Assembly: GCA_030295235.1 (NCBI GenBank)
Contig: AP026147.1
Coordinates: 310,001 to 374,000 of the forward strand
Length of the DNA: 64,000 nt
Direction: 5' to 3'
Origin: Fistulifera solaris
Lineage: Eukaryota
The position numbers and the translations under genes were made by a program. Of the stretch, positions 11,750 to 22,586 are shown one piece after another. Numbering within the stretch: the first letter of the stretch is position 1; the number at the start of each line of letters is the position of its first letter. The notes below the pieces were generated by a model, which had not been told where the DNA came from, ran no database searches, and saw only the letters and a list, made by a program, of their open reading frames with translations.

Positions 11750-12472
11750 TTACAAGAAGCCTTTCGATCGTCCCTTACGAAACGCAATTTTTCCTTTGGC
11801 CCATCCTGGATCTACAATTCCATTGCGCATGCTAGCGGATACATTGCAATTTCCCACAAATAGTCCAGAATCCTTGTCACCTTCCTTGCGCCCTTCCGGG
11901 AACACTTTCACCGTACCCGAACTGCGGGGAACCATGGATTTGGGGTTCATCGATCCGTTTTCTAGAGGAATTTGATATACTACGGAGGGGGAGTTGTCTA
12001 GTTCCCTTCATGGGGGCAACTGGACTTCAAATTCGACAACAAAAAGTCGTGATCGTACGGCTTCGTCGTAGGAAGCTTCCAACAAGTCGGTCGATTTTAA
12101 CCGATCCGCCATGCTTGGTCGCCAGAACGCACGGAGCTTTTTCCCATCCTTCATTACACCGAAAGCCTTGAGGCCAAATTTTCCCCGTTTCTTTAACAAT
12201 TGCATTTGGACGGGGGAATTTAAATATTTATTGATGTGAGCTCTGACTTTACTGCACAGTTTCTCCTCTTCGATCTTTGGGGGTTGGAGTTCCCATTTTA
12301 CATCATGCATGAGAAACATCTCTCTCGTCATTCCTGACATTGATTCATTATCGTCAAGTTGCATCTCCCCTCGAGCTTCATTGCCCATCTGGCTGGAGAA
12401 ACCTTCCCGAAGAAAGCGCTGAGCCGATATTAAGGGAAGAAACAAGCACAAGAAGTAGTTTAGAGATTTCAT
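11750..12472 (-). CDS. Hypothetical signal-peptide protein, frameshifted near 11960-12015
   Basis: Signal peptide MKSLNYFLCLFLPLISA. ORFs 12008-12484 and 11750-11950 can be joined through homopolymer indels. Confidence 0.6.
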
Positions 12473-12928: not shown

Positions 12929-13360
12929 ATGCCGAACAACGGACATTCTGGATTCATTCATGAAAGAGCAATCAACTTGGCTCGTCGCTGGAGTGTTCAG
13001 AATGAAAACGATCTCATGCAGGTAAGATTCATTATCTGGTGATCCTTCGCTCGCCGTATGAACTTTTGCTTTCTCACCGCGATGTACCTTTGGCTTGGAT
13101 TTCACAGGAGGATATGTTTGGTAAGTTGACTCATTTTCACATGAAAGCAGTTTCTGTAACGCACGCTCACGTTCTTTGATTCTTCAGATAGCACCATGGA
13201 CATGAAGCATGTTTACAATCACGATTATTGCAAGGAACTGGCGAGCCACATGATTCATCTCAAATCTCTCCCGATGGAGTGCATGAAGTTCACGGATGTG
13301 TCTTCTGATTTGAGGCGACGTGACGCCGACACGACCCATCCTACTCAGATTTTGAGTTAG
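12929..13360 (+). CDS. Small hypothetical protein (92 aa); exons 12929-13021, 13108-13120, 13188-13360
   Basis: Two canonical introns (GTAAGA...CTCAC...TTTCACAG, 86 nt; GTAAGT...CTCAC...TTCTTCAG, 67 nt) splice into one uninterrupted ATG-to-TAG frame. Not in the ORF track. Confidence 0.65.
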
Positions 13361-13779
13361 ACTTGATATCAAACTAGTTATTTGTCTTATTTGTAGTTTA
13401 AAAGATCAGTTTACAATACTTTCGTATACTTTATGTGCGCTGCCAAGGGCGTCTCAGATTAAAGCCAAGACAGCAAGAAATTAAACATCCACATTCTCGA
13501 AAGGAGTCATTATGATTGAAGCGTATTATAGACATACCATGATACAAACAAGGGTTATGATAACGTCTACAAACGATCAACGAGTTGCTTGCGACTAATG
13601 ATAATAGAAAGACATATTTTGAAAAGTATATGCTTGTATTATAGATTCTTATGCAGTGGTGGATGCAAGGGTATGAAATCAAAGCCATCAGAAATAGTGC
13701 TACATGCAGCCGATACAGCTGGATGAATATAGCCATGTGATGATATACTTGTGAGTATGTGTCATGAACTGCTCTGTGC

Positions 13780-14780
13780 TCAAGGGTCAAAGACGTCTCC
13801 GGGGGCGCTCATATCGTGGAGAATTCCGGCCTTGCGAGCTGCGTAACCCATGAGAATGCCGCGTTTCTTCGCTGACTGGACGTAGGACTTGTAATAGCAT
13901 CGAATGCGGTCGCGTACCGTCACGAACGAAAACTCAGCTTCATCAAAAATGTAGCCATGTTCGGTTGCGAGTTCTAGCAGCTTTTCCGTCAAGCGATTGT
14001 TGTACTGTTTCTGTTGAATCGTGTAGTTCATAGCCGAGTGCCGAAGGTATTCTTCTCGGTTTGTGATGAGAAACTGTTCAAGCTGTAATGGAATTGTGAG
14101 TTTAAGCTCGTAGCATATATACACGCCAATAAATGTACGAAGGACTTACCTCTGAGTAGTTCTTCCACGAGAACTTGCGCCGATGAATCTTCTTTACGGT
14201 AACCCCTTTCGGAACAGCTCCTTGCAAAGGACCAGAGGACTTTCCATTGTCAGCCAGTGCATCGAATTCATCTTCATCTTCTTCCTCTTCAAGTTCTTCA
14301 AGCTCCGGCTGCTTCCGTTTGCGAGTCGAGACACGCAATCCTTTGCGAAGCATGGGCGATGGAGTCACGGGGACTTGTTGACCTTCCGTCATAGACAAAG
14401 GCGAAGGAGTACGATTCCCTCCCATGCGATTTTGTTCCACTAGATCCAAAGAAACCGTTCGAGCACGACTGGAGGCGTGCGTGCTGACGGAGTGGGGCGA
14501 GGGTGAGCATGCTGGGGAGCGCAGCGCTCCGGTGTTCTCTCAAGGTTTTGTCGCGAAGCGAGAAAGCCGATCCTAACAAGAGGGGGAACTTCGGAAGCTC
14601 CTCGTCATCTTTCCACAGCATCCTATCACCTGACTTCATCTCCGACTTGGCAATGTCAGCAATGGAGAGAAGTAATGCTGCTTGATCGCGCACAGAGGTT
14701 TTCGAGAAACCATCGGAAGGCTCGTTCATCGGGGCTCGCTGGGTAGCGAACGCAAAGCGTTTGTTCAGTTTTGGGTTCAT
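13780..14780 (-). CDS. Uncharacterised putative DNA-binding protein, paralog A (FSWKxY...RDRIRCYYKSYVQ domain); intron 14083-14149; frameshift ~14500
   Basis: ATG at 14780 (MNPKLNKRF). The spliced domain RRKFSWKNYSE|LEQFLITNREEY...GYIF...RDRIRCYYKSYVQSAKKR clearly matches the gene at 16641-17287. Confidence 0.8.
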
Positions 14781-16640
14781 TGTGGTGCTGCTAGGCAATG
14801 TTCTTGTCTTTCGTAAGTAGAAATGTTCTTTAAACTCCTTGTGTTGGCATGTAATGATGATTTGACGTCGGAGAGAACGAGTATGAAAGCAGCCGGTGAA
14901 GTTGTCAACGAAAACACGATACCGAAAATCCATCGGCATCAGAGAACACGCCATTCGCGTACCAGCGGAATTCCGTGGAGGAGCGCACGTAGATTTCTAC
15001 GCCAGTGACCCCTACAAAACACAAAAGCGTTCCACCTTGGCCAATTATCGAGAAAGTGGCCAATAGCCCAACGCCGAACGCCGATGCGTGCTGTGAACGT
15101 GGCTGTGGGACTCAAAGTTCAAAGAGAATGACTGGCTGGCTACACTTTGAACCTACAGAGAAAAGCGTCATAGGACAATAAAGTAGGCTTTTTCGAAAGG
15201 CGGGAACAGGAGGAACTTTTCCATTTAGATTACAGAAGGCCTATCCGTTGGGGGTGTCGACTTTAATGTAGAGCAGCTGACAGATGACAGTTAGAAATCT
15301 TTATTATTGAAGGCAAAGTATTATGGCTTGTTTCTCGCGTTCCTATTGGATAACGGGGAGGGGAGAAAATAGCCTACCAAACAAAATGGTGAGAGCGGTA
15401 TCCGTTGCTCTTATCTAAAATACAAGATGTACACGTCTCAGTCAATATATAGATCATGTTCTTCGACTACTGAGACGAGGAAATTAGACTAGAGTCTAAG
15501 GGAATCTCGAGATTTGATCACCCATTGGAGTATCTCTTCGTAAACCGCCAAACACTGGTTCTTTTCAATTATTTATTCATCATAGATTGAAGGATAATCC
15601 TAAATTGGAAAGTTGATTTCCATCAGCGTAAAGCAGACAAGTAGATATCTCCTCTGGCTCATAGGAAGCTTTTTAACATATCTCTATAGAGTCTAGAGGT
15701 CACCTCTCGAGCATCTTGACCGAACTGACTCGGATGATCAGATCAGATCACAATGAATTTATCCATTTTTCTACTGCTTGCCCGGATCGGTTTCAGCATG
15801 CATTGTTTACGGTGTGATGGTCGATGATTCGTTCACAGTTTAGATTGCGCATTGTTTTATTAACGAATCTCAAAACTTGAATATTAAATCAAAGTCATGA
15901 GGTTTGGTCCAAATCTTGGGCTCTTACTAGTAGCTACCATGTACAGAACCGTACATCGTACAGTTTATAGACAAATGAAGGCGCCTGCGATGCTCCGAAC
16001 TCCCTAGCCTTTTCATTACGCAACAAACGCGACTCCACTCAGTCCTGCTTCAACTATGTGAACGTTTAACGCTTGAATAACGCCAAAAGCCTCATAACAT
16101 AATACAACAAAACAACGTTTTTTAAGGCTATACCTTAATTTTGCACAGACGACCCTATGTACATTCCCCAGTATACATTGTTGTGTAGTTATCATTTGTT
16201 ATGGATGACCAATTCTAAGTGAAACCAGACTACTCTTTGTCAATATACAAAGTACAGAAATGACAAGCCTGACGTCTTAATTCCGACAGACGTCACCTGT
16301 CCAAATTCGATCCACTTACAATAGAAAAGAAAGTACTTTGCACGGAAATGCGCATTCTTCCCGCGAAACAGGCGGAGGCGCGGCTCCCCGTCTGAACAGA
16401 ATGCAAGAAAAAAGAACAAAATCAGCATCATCCTCCGATGAGGATCGGAGGAACACAATTAAAGAGTGGTTTGGAACGAAACAATTGATCTCTTCTCTAC
16501 ATTCACTCCAAGGTACGCAGCTGAATCGAATTGCGCGGCGTTCTGGTGCATGCAAACAGTTTTTGTGCGGCAATAGCATTCGATTTCTGACAATCTCCTT
16601 TCCTGCAAAGAACACTACAAGAAGAATCATCATCGGAACT

Positions 16641-17287
16641 ATGAAGTATCAGCTGCACGTAGACGAGGGCAAGTGCAGTCGCGGAGCCGCTCTCCTTCTC
16701 ATGAAAGTTCGAGAGATTGCGATCCACGAGATTCACGATGTCTCTCCTCAATCTACTGACGATGATGACATCAATGTCATTACCCCCAAGCCGCGGTGCC
16801 GCACTGTTTCTCTCGATATCGGTCCACAAATGCCCATTATTAGCGAATCAGCTAGTTCTAGTTCGTTTTCCAGAGACGACTTGGATGCAGCGATCGTGGA
16901 AGCTGATGAAGATTCGGACAGTATCGTGCTGCACCCCGTGTTCCCCTGTACATCGAGCAAAAGCTCGTGGGCACGAGTATCCGCACCAAAACGACTAAGG
17001 GCGTACTTCGAAAGAAGTTCTCGTGGAAGTCGTATCCGGAATTGGAGGCGTTTCTGGTGGAAAACCGACCCCAATACATGGAATACTCGTCGCAACTCAA
17101 CTATACCGCGGAGCAAAAACGGTACAACAACACGTTAACGCAAGGGCTGTTGGATTTGGCCGCCGAAGAAGGGTACATTTTTGAAGGCTTCACGTTTTCG
17201 GCCATTCGAGACCGCATTCGTTGTTATTACAAGTCGTACGTTCAGGCCAACAAGAAAAAGAAGAAGCGCCGCAAGCATACCAAGTAA
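16641..17287 (+). CDS. Uncharacterised putative DNA-binding protein, paralog B; intronless; frameshift ~16950-16990
   Basis: ATG at 16641 (MKYQLHVDEG). Domain RKKFSWKSYPELEAFLVENR...GYIF...RDRIRCYYKSYVQ followed by the basic tail KKKKKRRK. Confidence 0.8.
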
Positions 17288-17556: not shown

Positions 17557-20500
17557 CTAGTTCTTTGGGCCCCCGTTCTTCGCAACGCCACGCATGATGC
17601 GGCGTGCCATCGCCACACATTCCGTGAGTTGGCATCGCATTTCCTTGGACATTTCGCCGTTGTCATCGGCGATTGGGACTCCAGTGAAGGGGCGCACCAT
17701 GTCGTTCTTTACCACCCTCAGACCTCCCATTTCTCCTACCAGGGCAACGAGTGACCGATCGAGTCTCGAAAGCGATTCGGCAATTGTAGTGTCCGTAGCA
17801 ATGCACTTTCGCGCTGGCCACCAAGGGTAGTTTTCCACCTTGGCCATGCAAATGTCGTCTGAAAAGTGCACGTTAGTCCAAACTTCGGATGGGTCCTTTG
17901 AAGCAGATGCCGACATGCCGTTCTTGGCCTTTTTCCGGGGCTTCTTCTCATCTTCTGTGCTCCACATTCTAATTGCATCGGTCAGTGCATCCCTCTCGTC
18001 ACATATCTTGAGTAGTTTGACTTGGCTAATCTCGCAGAACGCAGTTGATAAAGCCGCTACGCGTGACAGCGTCTTGACACTTTTGACCGCGGCAATCCAA
18101 TCGAATCGAGATGCGTCATCAGACCCAGACAAGCAACTTTTCAAAATAGCGGCTTCCAATGACAGAACAGACGGAATATCATCCTCACTTATCTCCTCAG
18201 CGGGAGAATTATCGTCGTCCGCCTCTTCATAGTCTTCGTCATCTTCGGGGTCATATCCGCCGTAGTCTTCAAGTACCTTCAGAGCAGCTTCTTTGCACTC
18301 TCCTGCTGCGTTTGGGTGGTGAAGAAGCAAGGCTGATCGAAGCTTCGCCACAATATCAGGGATATGAGCTTGGCGAGCAGCACCAATAGCCGATACGAGT
18401 AGGTTTCGGATTTCAGAATGCTTTTTGGTTGGAGTCTCTTTAATTCGGTGAACAAACCGTTTCCATATCTTTTCAAGTTTTTCCTTTTCAGCCAGGTCGT
18501 CGTCAGACGCGTCTACAGACATGTTATCGTCGGCTAGTTCAGCATCCTGAGCTGCTTTCGCGGCATTCGTTATCGTGGCTGCACGCTCTTCCAGGTCAAG
18601 TAATGATTGTTTTAAGGTAGCTATGATTGAAGAAACGGAAGACGTGTTGCTAGTCTGCGACGTCGTTGCCCGAGGACTGTCAGTGCGACGCCTCTTGGCA
18701 GAAGAGTCATTCCCCAAACTATCCAATGAGTCGCGACGGCCCGAATTATCATCCATTGCAGTGGTGTCGTCGCCAGATGCTAGACTATCGGAAGCCATAG
18801 AATTCCACGCTGAAACAGCGCCTTCCAACAAATTTATCCATTCCGACCGAGTCTTGTCCTTCTCATTCCACGGCCGTAACGACTCGCAAAGCTCTTCGAG
18901 TCCTAACAATTGAGCCACCAACATACCGACCATTCCCGTTCCGTCGATGTTTCCTGTTCCAACTAGTGATGCACATCCTAGAACAGGGACATAGCGGTTC
19001 TTACTATCTTGACTTCACGCGTTCGGCGTTGATCTTTGAGACAGCTCGTTTCAAACAAGCGCAGTGTATTCAAGCCAGTGAGTTCGTCATAGTCCAAGAC
19101 GTCGTTTGTCACTTCCTCTGGAACGTCACTCGCTTCCAAGGCTTTTAATTCTTCCTCGATCTGAAAAAGCTCATTCTCTGATTGACCGACCAGCCGTCCG
19201 CTTCTTCGCCCAGCTTCCTCGCTGCACTTTACCCTGGCCGCTTCCAAGCGTTTACGGAGCTGCTCCATTTCTTTTACCCTAGAACTAGCTTCCTTGACCG
19301 TTTTGACATCATCGTAGGCGATAAAACGGCGCAGAGATTGCTGAGCACCTGGTGGACCCAAGAGCTCTTCGTATAACTCATTTTCTCGCTTTCCACGAAT
19401 ATCAAGACTAGAAACAAAACTCTCGAACAGAGACGTTGAGTCGATGATATGCCAAGATCGCCGTTCAAAGTGGAAAGACTGCGGAAGAGAGCACGCGATC
19501 CCGGACGGAGGCCTCTTCTCTTCGATGTAAAGAACTTCCGGATCATTACGAAAGCAATACAGGGCGTTGAAGTTCCGATCGTATCCAACCGCTTCAGTGC
19601 GTGCAACCAGCTTGCGTATTCCTTTTTCGTATGCTTCACTAGCCTTTTGTTGAGCACGTTTAGCGGTCTCGAATTCCTTTTGCTAGCCGTAGGCTTAAAA
19701 GGCTCTTCGCTTTTATCCTTTCCGTTGTTTGAAGCTTCGTTCTCCGCGTTCTCGTCACCATCGTTCTCTGAAGTACTTTTACGCGGTTTCTTCGGTCCTT
19801 CAAACGCTAGACGAACCTTTCGAAATTTAGCGTCCGCGGAACGCTTCGCTCGCAATAACTCCTGCATTTCTTCTTCCCGAGACGCCAGATCATCCGATAT
19901 AGTAGAGTTGGTAGCCAAGATGTCTTCCGTGAGTGCCCTTAATAATGCCATTAGTTCTTCAGCAGTCAAATACCAGGGATCTTGTCGAGCTAGCTTCCTG
20001 TGAGCCCGATTTAATGCACTGGCAGCATCGCCAAGATAGGCCGAATATCCTTCGGGTAGAATGTGGTTCTCCGGCGCATCTCCGTTACTCTTGCGCGTTT
20101 TGATCGCCGGCGTCATGGGAATCGACACAGTCTCTTTGATTCCGAGCAAGTATTCGGTGTCGATTGCCAGAGCTGGAAGGACGGTTGGGTCACGACTAGC
20201 ATCTGTGCTATAAAAACGTTCCATAGCATCCATGTAAAGGGAACAGACTTCGGCCCAGCTAGTCGGCGACAGCGCCGGACTTAGAAATTCACGGATTTCA
20301 CGTCGAAGTTTCAGCTCATTCTTATCCGTCACGAGGGATGTATCTGGCGGGAGGAACAAGATTTGCAAACAAGTCACAAACAGGTGGGAAATGAGTGGAG
20401 GAATCAATTTTGCCTTTCTAGCGTGCCCATTGAGAACTTGTTCGACAGCAAAGATCAAATTTTTGAGTGTGAAATCAGGGACAATGGGATGATACTCATT

Positions 20501-21403
20501 CTCGTTGGGGCCTGTAAAATGAATGTCCCCGCGGAAAAGTGATAGACATGCAGAAGATCTGGCACCAGTCCGTAACTCCCAGAGTCCAATCCGTCCACTT
20601 TGCTGGCCTGTAAAATACTACCCGAGGTCTTACCCAAGCGAGAAGGGTGGTTGGGAGGCACGGTGGCGTGCCAGAAATAAGGCAAGTAAGGGCGAGCCGT
20701 GACATCTGCTGGAGGCTTGACATTCAGTTCCTTGTCCTCGGCATGTAGCTTCGTGTCCTCCATGGGGAATCGGCGACGACGCAATCGCTCAGCTCGCTCC
20801 TTAGCTTTTGCTTCAAATTCAGCCTTACGCTTAACTGCTTCTTCTTTTTTCAAAAGTTCTGCCTTCATTTTCTCCCGCGTCTCCGGATCTAAATCTTTCG
20901 TTTCCATTTCTTTCAGTTTCTTAGCATTCAACTCGAGAGTCTTTTCCAGTGAGTTAGCATCCGTGTATTCCTTTAGTTTGGCTTTCTTTTCGCTGCGGCC
21001 AAACGCTTTTTCTTGGCGGATTCTATGGCTTTGTAAGCGGATGAGATCTTATACGAACATTTCACCTTCGTGAAATGCTCTTTTTCACTCCCAGTTTCAA
21101 TGCCCCGTTGAGATTTCGTCGAAAATGCGCCCCATCCTGCAGATCCGGATAGTTGCTTAAAATCCACTTGGAAATGGCGGGCTGCGAACTCCCGGTACGA
21201 TCTTTGAGTGCCACAATGGCTTCCTGAATCAATTGCCCGTACGATCGATTGAGGGAACTCGCCGTGCCGGGGGCGGGTTTTTTCTTTTTCGACGACGCCT
21301 TGTTCTCGTCGTTCTCATTGTGCTTCATGGGAGTGTTCATATCATCCGACGCGGAGTGATCCGCGGATGCTGGGGACTCGGCGTGTTCACCGCTGGTGGA
21401 CAT
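17557..21403 (-). CDS. Chromatin protein: linker-histone H15 domain + DDT + WHIM1/WSD-like + C-terminal PWWP; multiple frameshifts
   Basis: H15: SYGQLIQEAIVALKDRTGSSQPAISKWI...KVKCSYKI. Also RFPMED, DDT-like VPDLLHVYHF, WHIM1-like WYLTAEELMALLRALTEDIL, and PWWP MAKVENYPWWPA. Consecutive same-strand ORFs are joined by single-base shifts. Confidence 0.75.
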
Positions 21404-22586
21404 GGTAGAATATCCTGCTTTTGTTTGCAAATGATTTTCGTTTTTCGGTTTCTGCAGAAAAAGTGAGCACAGCGAAGTGAGGGAAAGAGAGTCGATGGAG
21501 TGAGAATACATCTCAGCGAAGCGATGAAAGAAGCAAGATGACTCGCATGGATGAGAGAGCCCATCCGAACCGGCATCGTTCGCCGCCAATGCGGCGGCGG
21601 AGGAAAGGCGTGGCGAACGCGCCTATCAGGCAGCATTCGGGAGATGTCACACGGATAAAAGCCCCTGCGAGCCGTAAAGTCCTTGACTGCTCAATTATCT
21701 TCTCACTCACCGATAGAGAGGATTCAAGACGTCAATGCAGCTCGGTCTATTCTCTTCGACGGATTATCAATGACTTGCAAGAAACATAACGTTTTCCTGC
21801 ATTTGTGTGGCAATCACCGCGCCTTTCTAATTTTTTTCGTCCTTTCTCTAATCCACTATAGCTTAGAGTGTATTTAAGAAGAACGCGCGGCCAGCCTCGG
21901 CCAAAACAAATTGTTAACCTTACCCCTAAAACCGGGGACCAAACAGAAACAGACCCTCGACTATTAGGGACACCTAACATGTAGTCTAGACTTGTCATGA
22001 CTCAACCAGATTGGAGTCCCGGCATCTACGGCCCACATTTGAAAAAAAAGGCAACGCTACGATCACCGACCAATCCTCGACAAGCCGTCAGAAAACGAAA
22101 CTATGCATAATTTCACTTGCTAACCTGAACTTTTGCAATCCTCCCTTTGCATTTCCTGTAGTAAAGAAGTATGAGTATTTATTTTATAAAAAATAATGTA
22201 GGGGCGACTTGATGTCACTCAACACTCAACCCACAGTCGGTCCCTACCTATTTCGTGGCCTAGATGTACCAATAAAAAATCACTTTTCCAAATACCAGGT
22301 CATTAAATAAGCAGTCATTAGGGAAACTATAAATGAAGCATTGCCAGAACTCTCATTGATTCTGATATATAATTAAATTTATAATTGCAAGCCGCTCTTT
22401 TATTTCTTTGAAGTAACGGGCGCGATCGCGTAAAATCGAACGGTATTCGTGCGACAGTCTAAGCTTCCAGGTAGCTAAGTTAACGATTTCTCTCGCCACT
22501 CACTTGACAAGAAACAGGGAGATCTTATTCAGAAACATCAGAGGAAGTTAGAGCGAATGGGAATGCCGTGTTCGATCACAGAGTCG

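What the first reader, a model, noticed from the sequence alone, without database searches (positions are those of the whole stretch)
13780..17287. Head-to-head paralog pair with an unnamed domain: candidate new transcription-factor family
Seen: two divergently transcribed genes share a ~1.9-kb intergenic region. Both have the same three ordered elements: an N-terminal AALLLxxxxIAxxE helix, an RxRTVSLD motif, and a ~85-aa C-terminal domain (KFSWKxYxELExFLxxNR...NYTxxQKxYNNxLT..LLxLAxExGYIF...RDRIRCYYKSYVQ, last 13 aa identical) with a basic NLS-like tail. The linkers are unalignable and only paralog A has an intron, so the duplication is old yet the inverted arrangement persists. Inference: the W...E...L..R / GY / final basic helix spacing resembles trihelix/Myb-SANT-like DNA-binding domains, the AALLL helix resembles Sin3-interaction motifs, and RxRxxS is a basophilic kinase/14-3-3 type site. 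Together these suggest a co-regulated pair of phospho-controlled repressors. I cannot assign a named family.
Basis: partly seen in the sequence, partly recalled or inferred. Interest (0 to 1): 0.8.

Follow-up and report, generated by a model that had tools for sequence, protein, structure and literature searches.

The report
Diatom head-to-head candidate transcription factors
Two back-to-back diatom genes are old copies of an unnamed, diatom-centred protein family whose conserved domain is predicted to fold like known DNA-binding domains, so they are probably unrecognised gene regulators, although DNA binding, repression and joint control are all untested.

Summary
The pair is real: Fistulifera solaris FisN_15Hh215 (A, 310 aa) and FisN_15Hh214 (B, 215 aa). 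Both are frameshifted in this window, but independent runs show single-base assembly errors. Both genes are spliced and polyadenylated or covered in RNA-like runs, and B also has an intron (5' UTR). The ~90-aa domain has no Pfam or PDB sequence match. It defines a compact family (728 clusters at 50% identity; named members are diatoms and Parmales; five loci per F. solaris subgenome). Two AlphaFold models (pLDDT 91, 93) give a three-helix bundle. The best match of both is the Zeste Myb/SANT-like DNA-binding domain (Z 6.3, 5.7), and 16 of the top 17 rows for B are homeodomain- or Myb-like; these Z values are only middling. The last helix carries near-invariant R, D, R, K, Q and K on the face opposite the core. 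Trihelix, Myb and homeodomain signature residues are missing, so this is not a member of those families. The N-terminal helix and RxR[TSA]xS motifs are conserved far above chance. Head-to-head linkage recurs in other pennate diatoms, but inside a larger conserved gene block. Best reading: a new lineage-specific transcription-factor family. Repression, phospho-control and co-regulation remain inferred.

The parts
13780..14780 (-). Gene A coding span (FisN_15Hh215, 310 aa): exon 1 14150-14780, exon 2 13780-14082; one extra base in this assembly at 14491
14083..14149 (-). 67-nt GT-AG phase-0 intron inside helix 1 of the domain; same position in paralog C, in the A genes of L023 and L027, and in a B-clade gene (L044)
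14640..14684 (-). A: N-terminal amphipathic helix motif (residues 33-47), candidate cofactor-docking motif
14444..14467 (-). A: RARTVSLD, basophilic RxRxxS-type site (residues 105-112)
13861..14176 (-). A: conserved three-helix domain (KFSW to KKR), split by the intron; followed by the A-specific GYAARKAG extension
13617..13779 (-). A 3' UTR; poly(A) loose end at 13617 in run X3
14781..16640 (.). 1,860-nt region between the start codons. It has two blocks highly conserved between homoeologs, near A (about 14850-15140) and near B (about 16240-16400), with a diverged middle. No cover in the spliced runs X2-X4 from 14884 to 16323.
16513..16610 (+). 98-nt GT-AG intron in the 5' UTR of B
   Evidence: run X2; homoeolog joint in X3 and X4
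16641..17287 (+). Gene B coding sequence (FisN_15Hh214, 215 aa); one base missing in this assembly after 16958
16686..16730 (+). B: N-terminal amphipathic helix motif (residues 16-30)
16794..16817 (+). B: RCRTVSLD, basophilic RxRxxS-type site (R52 and S57 invariant in 44 of 44 aligned B proteins)
17015..17260 (+). B: conserved three-helix domain; the last helix carries near-invariant R190, D191, R194, C195, K198, Q202, K205 and K206
17252..17284 (+). B: K/R-rich tail, NLS-like, specific to the B clade

Best explanation
A and B are old paralogs of an unnamed, diatom- and Parmales-centred family of nuclear, sequence-specific DNA-binding regulators with a homeodomain-like (Myb/SANT-like, trihelix-type) three-helix domain. 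Shown: the gene structures, splicing and transcript cover, the family, the predicted fold, motif conservation and the recurring head-to-head layout. Inferred (about 0.7): the long third helix enters the major groove through R190, D191, R194, K198 and Q202, and the basic RKK arm before the invariant Trp touches the minor groove or backbone. A and B, with the same helix, would then read the same site. Inferred (about 0.35): the N-terminal amphipathic helix docks a co-repressor such as Sin3. Inferred (about 0.5): the RxRxxS serine is phosphorylated by a basophilic AGC-type kinase and tunes activity or location. The pair arose by an inverted DNA-level duplication before the raphid pennates radiated. 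B then diverged faster and swapped the A-type tail for a basic tail. The two genes keep separate proximal promoters and sit in a conserved gene block, so tight co-regulation is possible but not needed to explain the linkage.
For: Fold: AF2 pLDDT 91, helices 26-43, 50-70 and 79-107. VIA-align top row Zeste DBD 5cqq_B, Z 6.3, rmsd 3.3, 71 aligned; 16 of the top 17 rows are homeodomain, Myb/SANT or trihelix domains. An independent model of distant paralog D (pLDDT 92.9) again ranks Zeste first, Z 5.7, rmsd 3.4, 71 aligned. The Atlas structure search lists Vhr1 (TM 0.50) and Myb_DNA-bind_5 (TM 0.48) clusters among its 10 rows. Helix 3: R190 in 469 of 469 rows, D191 466/469, R194 468/468, C195 466/468, K198 468/468, Q202 460/462. 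These lie at 100-240 degrees on the helical wheel, opposite I189/I193/Y196/Y200; helix net charge is +6 to +7 in 5 of 5 proteins checked. The R-D-x-x-R spacing equals TRF1 K421/D422/R425, which contact bases (PMC5737604 passages). Architecture: one small folded domain with an S/P-rich remainder; 1 of 57 long members has a Pfam domain over cut-off, an HA domain. Motifs far above shuffles. The helix matches the SID consensus h-x-x-L-h-x-h-A of PMC8657803 read backwards in 79 of 105 B and 52 of 144 A proteins (shuffles 1.0 and 2.2). Sin3-type PAH proteins exist in this genome. Linkage: 3 of 3 B-clade metagenome loci with at least 1.9 kb upstream hold a head-to-head A; consecutive gene numbers in Epithemia and Nitzschia Nitz4.
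Against: All structural Z values are under 8, which the tool says may reflect only a common helical arrangement. Foldseek found nothing at E <= 0.001. For model D the top rows are mixed. No sequence-level link: profile comparison with this genome's Myb repeats gave probability 0.7-1.7%, and 2 of 100 column shuffles scored as high. Only one invariant Trp, against one per helix in trihelix domains. The invariance counts are inflated because hits were gathered through exact words or as top-scoring rows. The D domain has net charge 0 overall. The SID consensus is loose, and its first position is Gln in F. solaris A. No localisation, binding or phosphorylation data were found.
Confidence: 0.62

Rival explanations
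1. The domain is a three-helix protein-, chromatin- or RNA-binding module (like a non-DNA-binding SANT domain), and the proteins are scaffolds or cofactors rather than sequence-specific factors.
For: Structural Z values are only 5-6, and SANT (DNAJC2, Z 4.8) and DAXX (Z 5.3) are among the top rows. No sequence link to any DNA-binding family. B sits next to a linker-histone/WSD/PWWP chromatin gene in 4 other loci (L025, L026, L027, L031).
Against: The invariant surface is basic and polar and lies on the last helix, with a basic arm before the first Trp. SANT domains that do not bind DNA are typically acidic there (recalled). The lone-domain-plus-disorder build is that of transcription factors.
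Confidence: 0.2
2. A and B are a functionally coupled two-gene switch. They are co-expressed from one control region and either heterodimerise or compete for one site, and this is why the inverted layout persists and recurs, as with head-to-head homeodomain pairs at fungal mating-type loci (analogy recalled).
For: Head-to-head in both F. solaris subgenomes, in P. tricornutum (L026), and in L023 and L027. A second kind of pair (A-like with A-like) is head-to-head in L037, L043 and L046 with wholly different neighbours. So the pair either moved as a unit or arose twice; AU tests reject neither (B+X p 0.456, X+Y p 0.402). A and B share the recognition helix but differ in their tails.
Against: In pennates the genes on both sides are conserved as well. 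One A-type locus (L078) has no partner within 4.5 kb upstream of its start. The intergenic region has two separate conserved blocks and no shared k-mer excess across species. Inverted paralog neighbours are common here.
Confidence: 0.15
3. Both window copies are frameshifted pseudogenes, or need recoding, so the pair is not functional in this subgenome.
For: As assembled, both reading frames break.
Against: Four public runs of one study show the in-frame form at full depth wherever they cover. The annotated proteins FisN_15Hh214 and FisN_15Hh215 are continuous. The C35 homoeologs are open.
Confidence: 0.02

Closest known systems
Myb/SANT-like (MADF-type) DNA-binding domain of Drosophila Zeste, PDB 5cqq; Pfam Myb_DNA-bind_5 PF13873
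   Same: Top structural match for both models (Z 6.3 and 5.7; 71 of 75 residues aligned). Three long helices with a long third helix, in an otherwise low-complexity protein.
   Different: 6-7% identity, no Pfam match, and a different conserved core.
Plant trihelix GT-1 domain (PDB 2jmw; Pfam PF13837)
   Same: Z 5.4, rmsd 3.8, 72 aligned; long helices; third helix extended at its C-terminus.
   Different: Trihelix domains have a Trp in each repeat and were found only in land plants in PMC4195496 (passages). This family has one invariant Trp and is named only in diatoms and Parmales.
Atypical homeodomains HNF1A, HMBOX1/HOT1 and WUSCHEL
   Same: Z 5.2-5.7; basic N-terminal arm before an aromatic residue.
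   Different: The WFxNxR helix-3 signature (recalled) is replaced by [YF][YF]K[ST][YH][VI]; no homeodomain Pfam hit.
Telobox/Myb recognition helix (TRF1 K421, D422, R425)
   Same: Same basic-acidic-x-x-basic spacing (R190, D191, R194). The best local profile alignment to F. solaris Myb repeats puts IRDR on IRDR.
   Different: Profile probability under 2%; helices longer; the Myb Trp of helices 2 and 3 is absent.
DUF6824 (PF20710), a large unnamed diatom family
   Same: Nearest named cluster by language-model features (0.84-0.85) and TM 0.56 in the Atlas; similar size; also found as inverted neighbours.
   Different: No Pfam match. Profile comparison is not significant: 7 of 100 shuffles scored as high, and the reversed profile scored higher. 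Its own function is unknown.

Membership tests
Trihelix / Myb-SANT-like (PF13837, PF13873) | Match to the family profile | tested here: not met
   0 of 19 aligned domains match these families at E <= 1;
Trihelix / Myb-SANT-like (PF13837, PF13873) | Conserved Trp in each helix repeat (PMC4195496; Phe or Cys allowed in the third helix of clade I) | tested here: not met
   One invariant Trp (W129) before helix 1; none in helix 2; Ile/Cys/Tyr in helix 3
Trihelix / Myb-SANT-like (PF13837, PF13873) | Three-helix helix-loop-helix-loop-helix topology with a long third helix | tested here: met
   Model helices 26-43, 50-70 and 79-107; Zeste Z 6.3, GT-1 Z 5.4. This is topology only: Z under 8 does not prove homology.
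Trihelix / Myb-SANT-like (PF13837, PF13873) | Sequence-specific DNA binding through helix 3 | not testable with these tools
   Indirect only: invariant basic/polar face
Homeodomain | Profile match and WFxNxR signature in helix 3 (signature recalled) | tested here: not met
   No Pfam match; helix 3 reads RDRIRC[YF][YF]K[ST]
Myb repeat / telobox (PF00249) | Profile match; three regularly spaced Trp (recalled) | tested here: not met
   No Pfam match; hhalign probability 0.7-1.7%
Myb repeat / telobox (PF00249) | Basic-Asp-x-x-Arg base-reading triad on the recognition helix, as TRF1 K421/D422/R425 | tested here: inconclusive
   The spacing is present and near-invariant, but the register rests on a non-significant alignment
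DUF6824 (PF20710) | Profile match | tested here: not met
   No Pfam match; hhalign probability under 1%, within shuffles
Sin3-interaction domain (PAH2 binder) | Consensus h-x-x-L-h-x-h-A (PMC8657803), here read in the reverse orientation (reverse binding by HBP1 is recalled) | tested here: met
   79 of 105 B and 52 of 144 A proteins, against 1.0 and 2.2 in shuffles; F. solaris B fits, A deviates at one end. The consensus is loose.
Sin3-interaction domain (PAH2 binder) | Physical binding to a PAH domain and repression | not testable with these tools
   Needs a binding or reporter assay
Bidirectional-promoter gene pair | Transcription starts within about 1 kb (definition from the abstract listing of PMC7817982) and co-expression | tested here: inconclusive
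   RNA-like contigs leave about 1.4 kb uncovered (14884-16323), but contigs cannot show starts or levels

The most novel reading that the evidence does not exclude
A previously unrecognised transcription-factor family of diatoms and Parmales, two members of which form a deeply conserved (or twice evolved) head-to-head two-gene switch. A and B read one DNA site, both recruit Sin3 through an N-terminal helix, and both are switched by a nutrient-linked AGC kinase at RxRxxS, a FOXO-like logic (analogy recalled) built on a lineage-specific domain.
Probability: 0.12. Interest if true: 0.8.

Novelty: new variant of a known kind. Interest (0 to 1): 0.52.

Why it matters
Diatom transcription-factor catalogues are built from known profiles, and HSF alone makes up 34% of the P. 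tricornutum set (PMC4827209 passage). A family with no Pfam model is invisible to them. This family has five loci per F. solaris subgenome, spans pennate and centric diatoms and Parmales, and has a near-invariant putative recognition helix, which points to a conserved target motif. The model species carries the pair (B7GE95/B7GE96), so DAP-seq, GFP fusions and CRISPR knockouts can test it directly. If the kinase site and co-repressor helix are real, it would link signalling to transcription in a group that fixes a large share of marine carbon.

Tried and rejected
Pfam scans of the window proteins, 19 domains and 57 long members: no family over cut-off except one HA domain; weak Nif11, Syntaxin-18_N and similar hits stayed below cut-off. 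PDB sequence searches: best E 0.0077 to Pumilio repeats, with no stretch passing on its own. Foldseek against PDB and BFVD: nothing at E <= 0.001; second look one search gave HNF1A Z 5.5. Complex prediction of the Sin3 PAH1-PAH2 region with B residues 4-37: no verdict (score 0.02, mark 0.34; alignments not used); it counts neither way. No relatives in prokaryote genomes (34 pattern hits, 0 confirmed) or viral contigs (88, 0 confirmed). TGACGT (bZIP/aureochrome-type site, recalled) occurs in all 8 intergenic regions and twice in the conserved block before B. At 1.74 per kb against 1.16 per kb in the window's other non-ORF DNA (0.32 in other loci), picked after seeing it, and not aligned across species, it was not accepted. 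Shared k-mers across species stayed at or near shuffle maxima. Tree tests could not tell one origin of the pair from two; the larger tree is a quick one on 99 columns. Literature: no paper in the library holds the motif or any of 10 accessions searched, nor DUF6824; diatom-trihelix and head-to-head searches gave nothing on this family. The library lacks most subscription papers. P. tricornutum expression or phosphosite data could not be reached: the PhaeoNet table is cut at 7,082 rows, and there were no hits in the supplements of PMC7670200 or PMC7408324 (I did not check that the latter lists peptides). Unseen supplements may hold expression data for these genes. Two non-diatom labels among the hits (Tiarina, a ciliate; Kryptoperidinium, a dinoflagellate) nest among diatom A genes; I read them as prey or endosymbiont sequence (inference).
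Full report
Setting. The window is G000:C34:310001-374000 of a 51.7-Mb assembly whose contigs come in pairs. The 30 kb of C35 that I fetched align to the window at about 87% identity and carry the same two genes in the same layout. Named database hits identify the proteins as Fistulifera solaris FisN_15Hh214/15Lh214 (B) and FisN_15Hh215/15Lh215 (A). That the species is allodiploid is recalled, and fits the pairs.

Observation. Gene A runs on the minus strand from 14780 to 13780, and gene B on the plus strand from 16641 to 17287; the start codons are 1,860 nt apart. The shared domain is 55% identical over 101 residues (E 1e-35), and nothing else aligns significantly. Contigs of four public runs, all from one study, lack one base at 14491 (3 of 3 covering runs) and carry one more after 16958 (4 of 4), each at full depth. 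The annotated proteins and the C35 copies are continuous, so these are assembly errors. The same runs confirm A's 67-nt intron and a poly(A) end at 13617, and reveal a 98-nt intron in B's 5' UTR. Runs X2-X4 cover both genes and not 14884-16323; their RNA status is a guess by the tool, supported by splicing and poly(A). Paralog C, other A genes and one B-clade gene (L044) have the coding intron at the same place. So the duplication copied an intron-bearing gene, and F. solaris B lost the intron.

Family. One query found 10 matches in the genome: five loci in two copies each (A, B, C, D, E). Homolog searches gave 212, 113 and 398 proteins (120, 113 and 120 listed). A 19-sequence profile found 728 clusters at E <= 0.001, 633 of them at E <= 1e-10, among 1.84 billion representatives (best 150 listed). 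That is a compact family with no long tail into large known families. Prokaryote and viral scans confirmed none. Trees split a D/E subfamily, which includes Triparma, from A/B/C (quick tree). B is a long-branched clade (100/99) whose named members are all raphid pennates. No Pfam family fits, and 1 of 57 long members has another domain over cut-off, an HA domain.

Fold. The B domain, modelled with 113 sequences, has pLDDT 91 and three helices, the last 29 residues long. Against 48,161 PDB representatives the best row is the Zeste DNA-binding domain (Z 6.3, rmsd 3.3, 71 aligned), followed by HNF1A, HMBOX1/HOT1, GT-1, WUSCHEL and others; 16 of the first 17 rows are homeodomain, Myb/SANT or trihelix domains. 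The distant paralog D, modelled separately (pLDDT 92.9), again ranks Zeste first (Z 5.7), though its other rows are mixed. These Z values are below 8, where the tool warns of common arrangements, and Foldseek found nothing significant. What persuades is the consistency of the rows, not any single score. The Atlas offered DUF6824, Vhr1 and Myb_DNA-bind_5 as leads under its bars. Profile tests against this genome's own DUF6824 and Myb domains were not significant: 7 and 2 of 100 shuffles scored as high.

Putative recognition helix. R190, D191, R192, R194, C195, K198 and Q202 (B numbering) are present in 99-100% of 462-469 aligned rows; the way hits were collected inflates this. On a helical wheel R190, D191, R194, K198, Q202 and K205 face away from I189, I193, Y196 and Y200, and the helix is +6 to +7 in the five proteins checked. 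TRF1 reads bases with K421, D422 and R425 and a basic N-terminal arm (PMC5737604, passages). The spacing here is the same, and A, B and C have a basic RKK arm before the one invariant Trp. Trihelix domains have a Trp in each repeat (PMC4195496, passages); this family does not. So it plausibly works like a Myb/SANT-like or trihelix DNA-binding domain, but it is not a member of those families by their defining tests.

N-terminal motifs. Among proteins with at least 110 residues before the domain, the loose helix motif occurs in 89 of 105 B, 59 of 144 A, 5 of 40 C and 1 of 93 D/E proteins. RxR[TSA]xS occurs in 83, 137, 8 and 1 of them. Shuffles give 0.1-2.0 (fragments, and the 68 of 489 proteins that the motif-based classifier could not place, were left out). 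In an unselected alignment of 44 B proteins, A17, L19, L20, R52 and S57 are invariant. The helix fits the Sin3-PAH2 consensus of PMC8657803 (passages) read backwards in 79 of 105 B and 52 of 144 A proteins, and the genome encodes Sin3-type PAH proteins. RxRxxS followed by a hydrophobic residue is the AGC-kinase consensus (recalled). There is no Pro at +2, so a classical 14-3-3 mode-1 site (recalled) fits less well. Both readings are inference from motifs. The K/R-rich tail is B-specific (92 of 105 against 0 of 144).

The pair. Among the 80 metagenome loci kept of 273, all 3 B-clade loci with at least 1.9 kb upstream of the domain hold a head-to-head A gene: L023, L027 and L026. L026 matches the P. 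tricornutum proteins B7GE95/B7GE96, the A side by its first 22 residues. Epithemia clementina (ACA910_011309/011310) and Nitzschia sp. Nitz4 (NITZ4_003429/003430, 1.3 kb apart) have consecutive A and B genes, orientation not seen. Of 4 A-type loci with that much upstream DNA, 3 (L037, L043, L046) have a head-to-head partner from a different clade, X, and unrelated neighbours; L078 has none. None of 9 C-type loci has a partner, though several are near-duplicates or end close to the gene's start. AU tests reject neither B+X nor X+Y as clades, so one old origin and two independent origins both stand. Against a special pair: in pennates the small gene beyond A (L023, L027) and the linker-histone/WSD/PWWP gene beyond B (L025, L026, L027, L031) are conserved too. 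The intergenic DNA is conserved between homoeologs in two separate blocks near each gene. No cross-species motif stands clear of shuffles. DUF6824 genes also form inverted neighbours in this genome. Two earlier scan notes describe another head-to-head paralog pair in the genome (unchecked).

Mechanism and verdict. The most likely reading (0.62) is two nuclear, sequence-specific regulators of a new lineage-specific family that read the same DNA site. Each has a docking helix and a basophilic phosphosite in a disordered arm, and they are kept side by side after an old inverted duplication. A non-DNA-binding scaffold (0.2) and a tightly coupled two-gene switch (0.15) are the rivals; pseudogenes are excluded (0.02). 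I found no description in the searchable literature, which lacks most subscription papers. Novelty: new variant of a known kind. Interest 0.52: a real, testable and apparently unnamed candidate transcription-factor family, but the fold evidence is middling, no function is shown, and diatoms hold other such unnamed families.

Noticed in passing
window 17557-21511 (-): Large gene convergent with B; linker-histone and PWWP matches here, and linker-histone, WSD and PWWP in its intact 1,324-aa relative in L027. It is broken into several ORFs in this assembly, and it stays next to B in L025, L026, L027 and L031.
   Followed up: partly
window 12930-13403 (+): Small multi-exon gene convergent with A, polyadenylated at 13403 and conserved beside A in L023 and L027; not identified.
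   Followed up: partly
window 11750-12472 (-): Unnamed gene with a signal-peptide-like start and no Pfam match; its homolog in L023 lies on the B side of the pair instead.
   Followed up: partly
window 16240-16400: A run of about 70 nt identical between the two homoeologs upstream of B, holding two TGACGT sites; not alignable to other species.
   Followed up: yes
G000:C24:256400-260230, C23:273854-277463, C38:338893-341823, C39:346526-349614: DUF6824 genes (130 matches in the genome) occur as inverted neighbours. DUF6824 has a similar size and is the nearest named cluster by features, so it may be another unrecognised DNA-binding family; no paper in the library names it.
   Followed up: partly
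L016:5165-5656 (paralog D): The D/E subfamily has extra conserved helices on both sides of the core domain, modelled with high confidence, and lacks the two N-terminal motifs.
   Followed up: partly
window 17222-17224 (B residue C195): A Cys that is near-invariant across the family (466 of 468 rows) sits on the putative recognition helix and could be a redox switch (speculation).
   Followed up: no
P0192; P0122: One D-type protein also carries an HA domain; another has two copies of the family domain.
   Followed up: no
window 14491 and 16958; L101: Single-base assembly errors hit both genes here, and a Sin3 copy on C14 also breaks frame, so apparent frameshifts elsewhere in this assembly need checking against reads.
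   Followed up: partly
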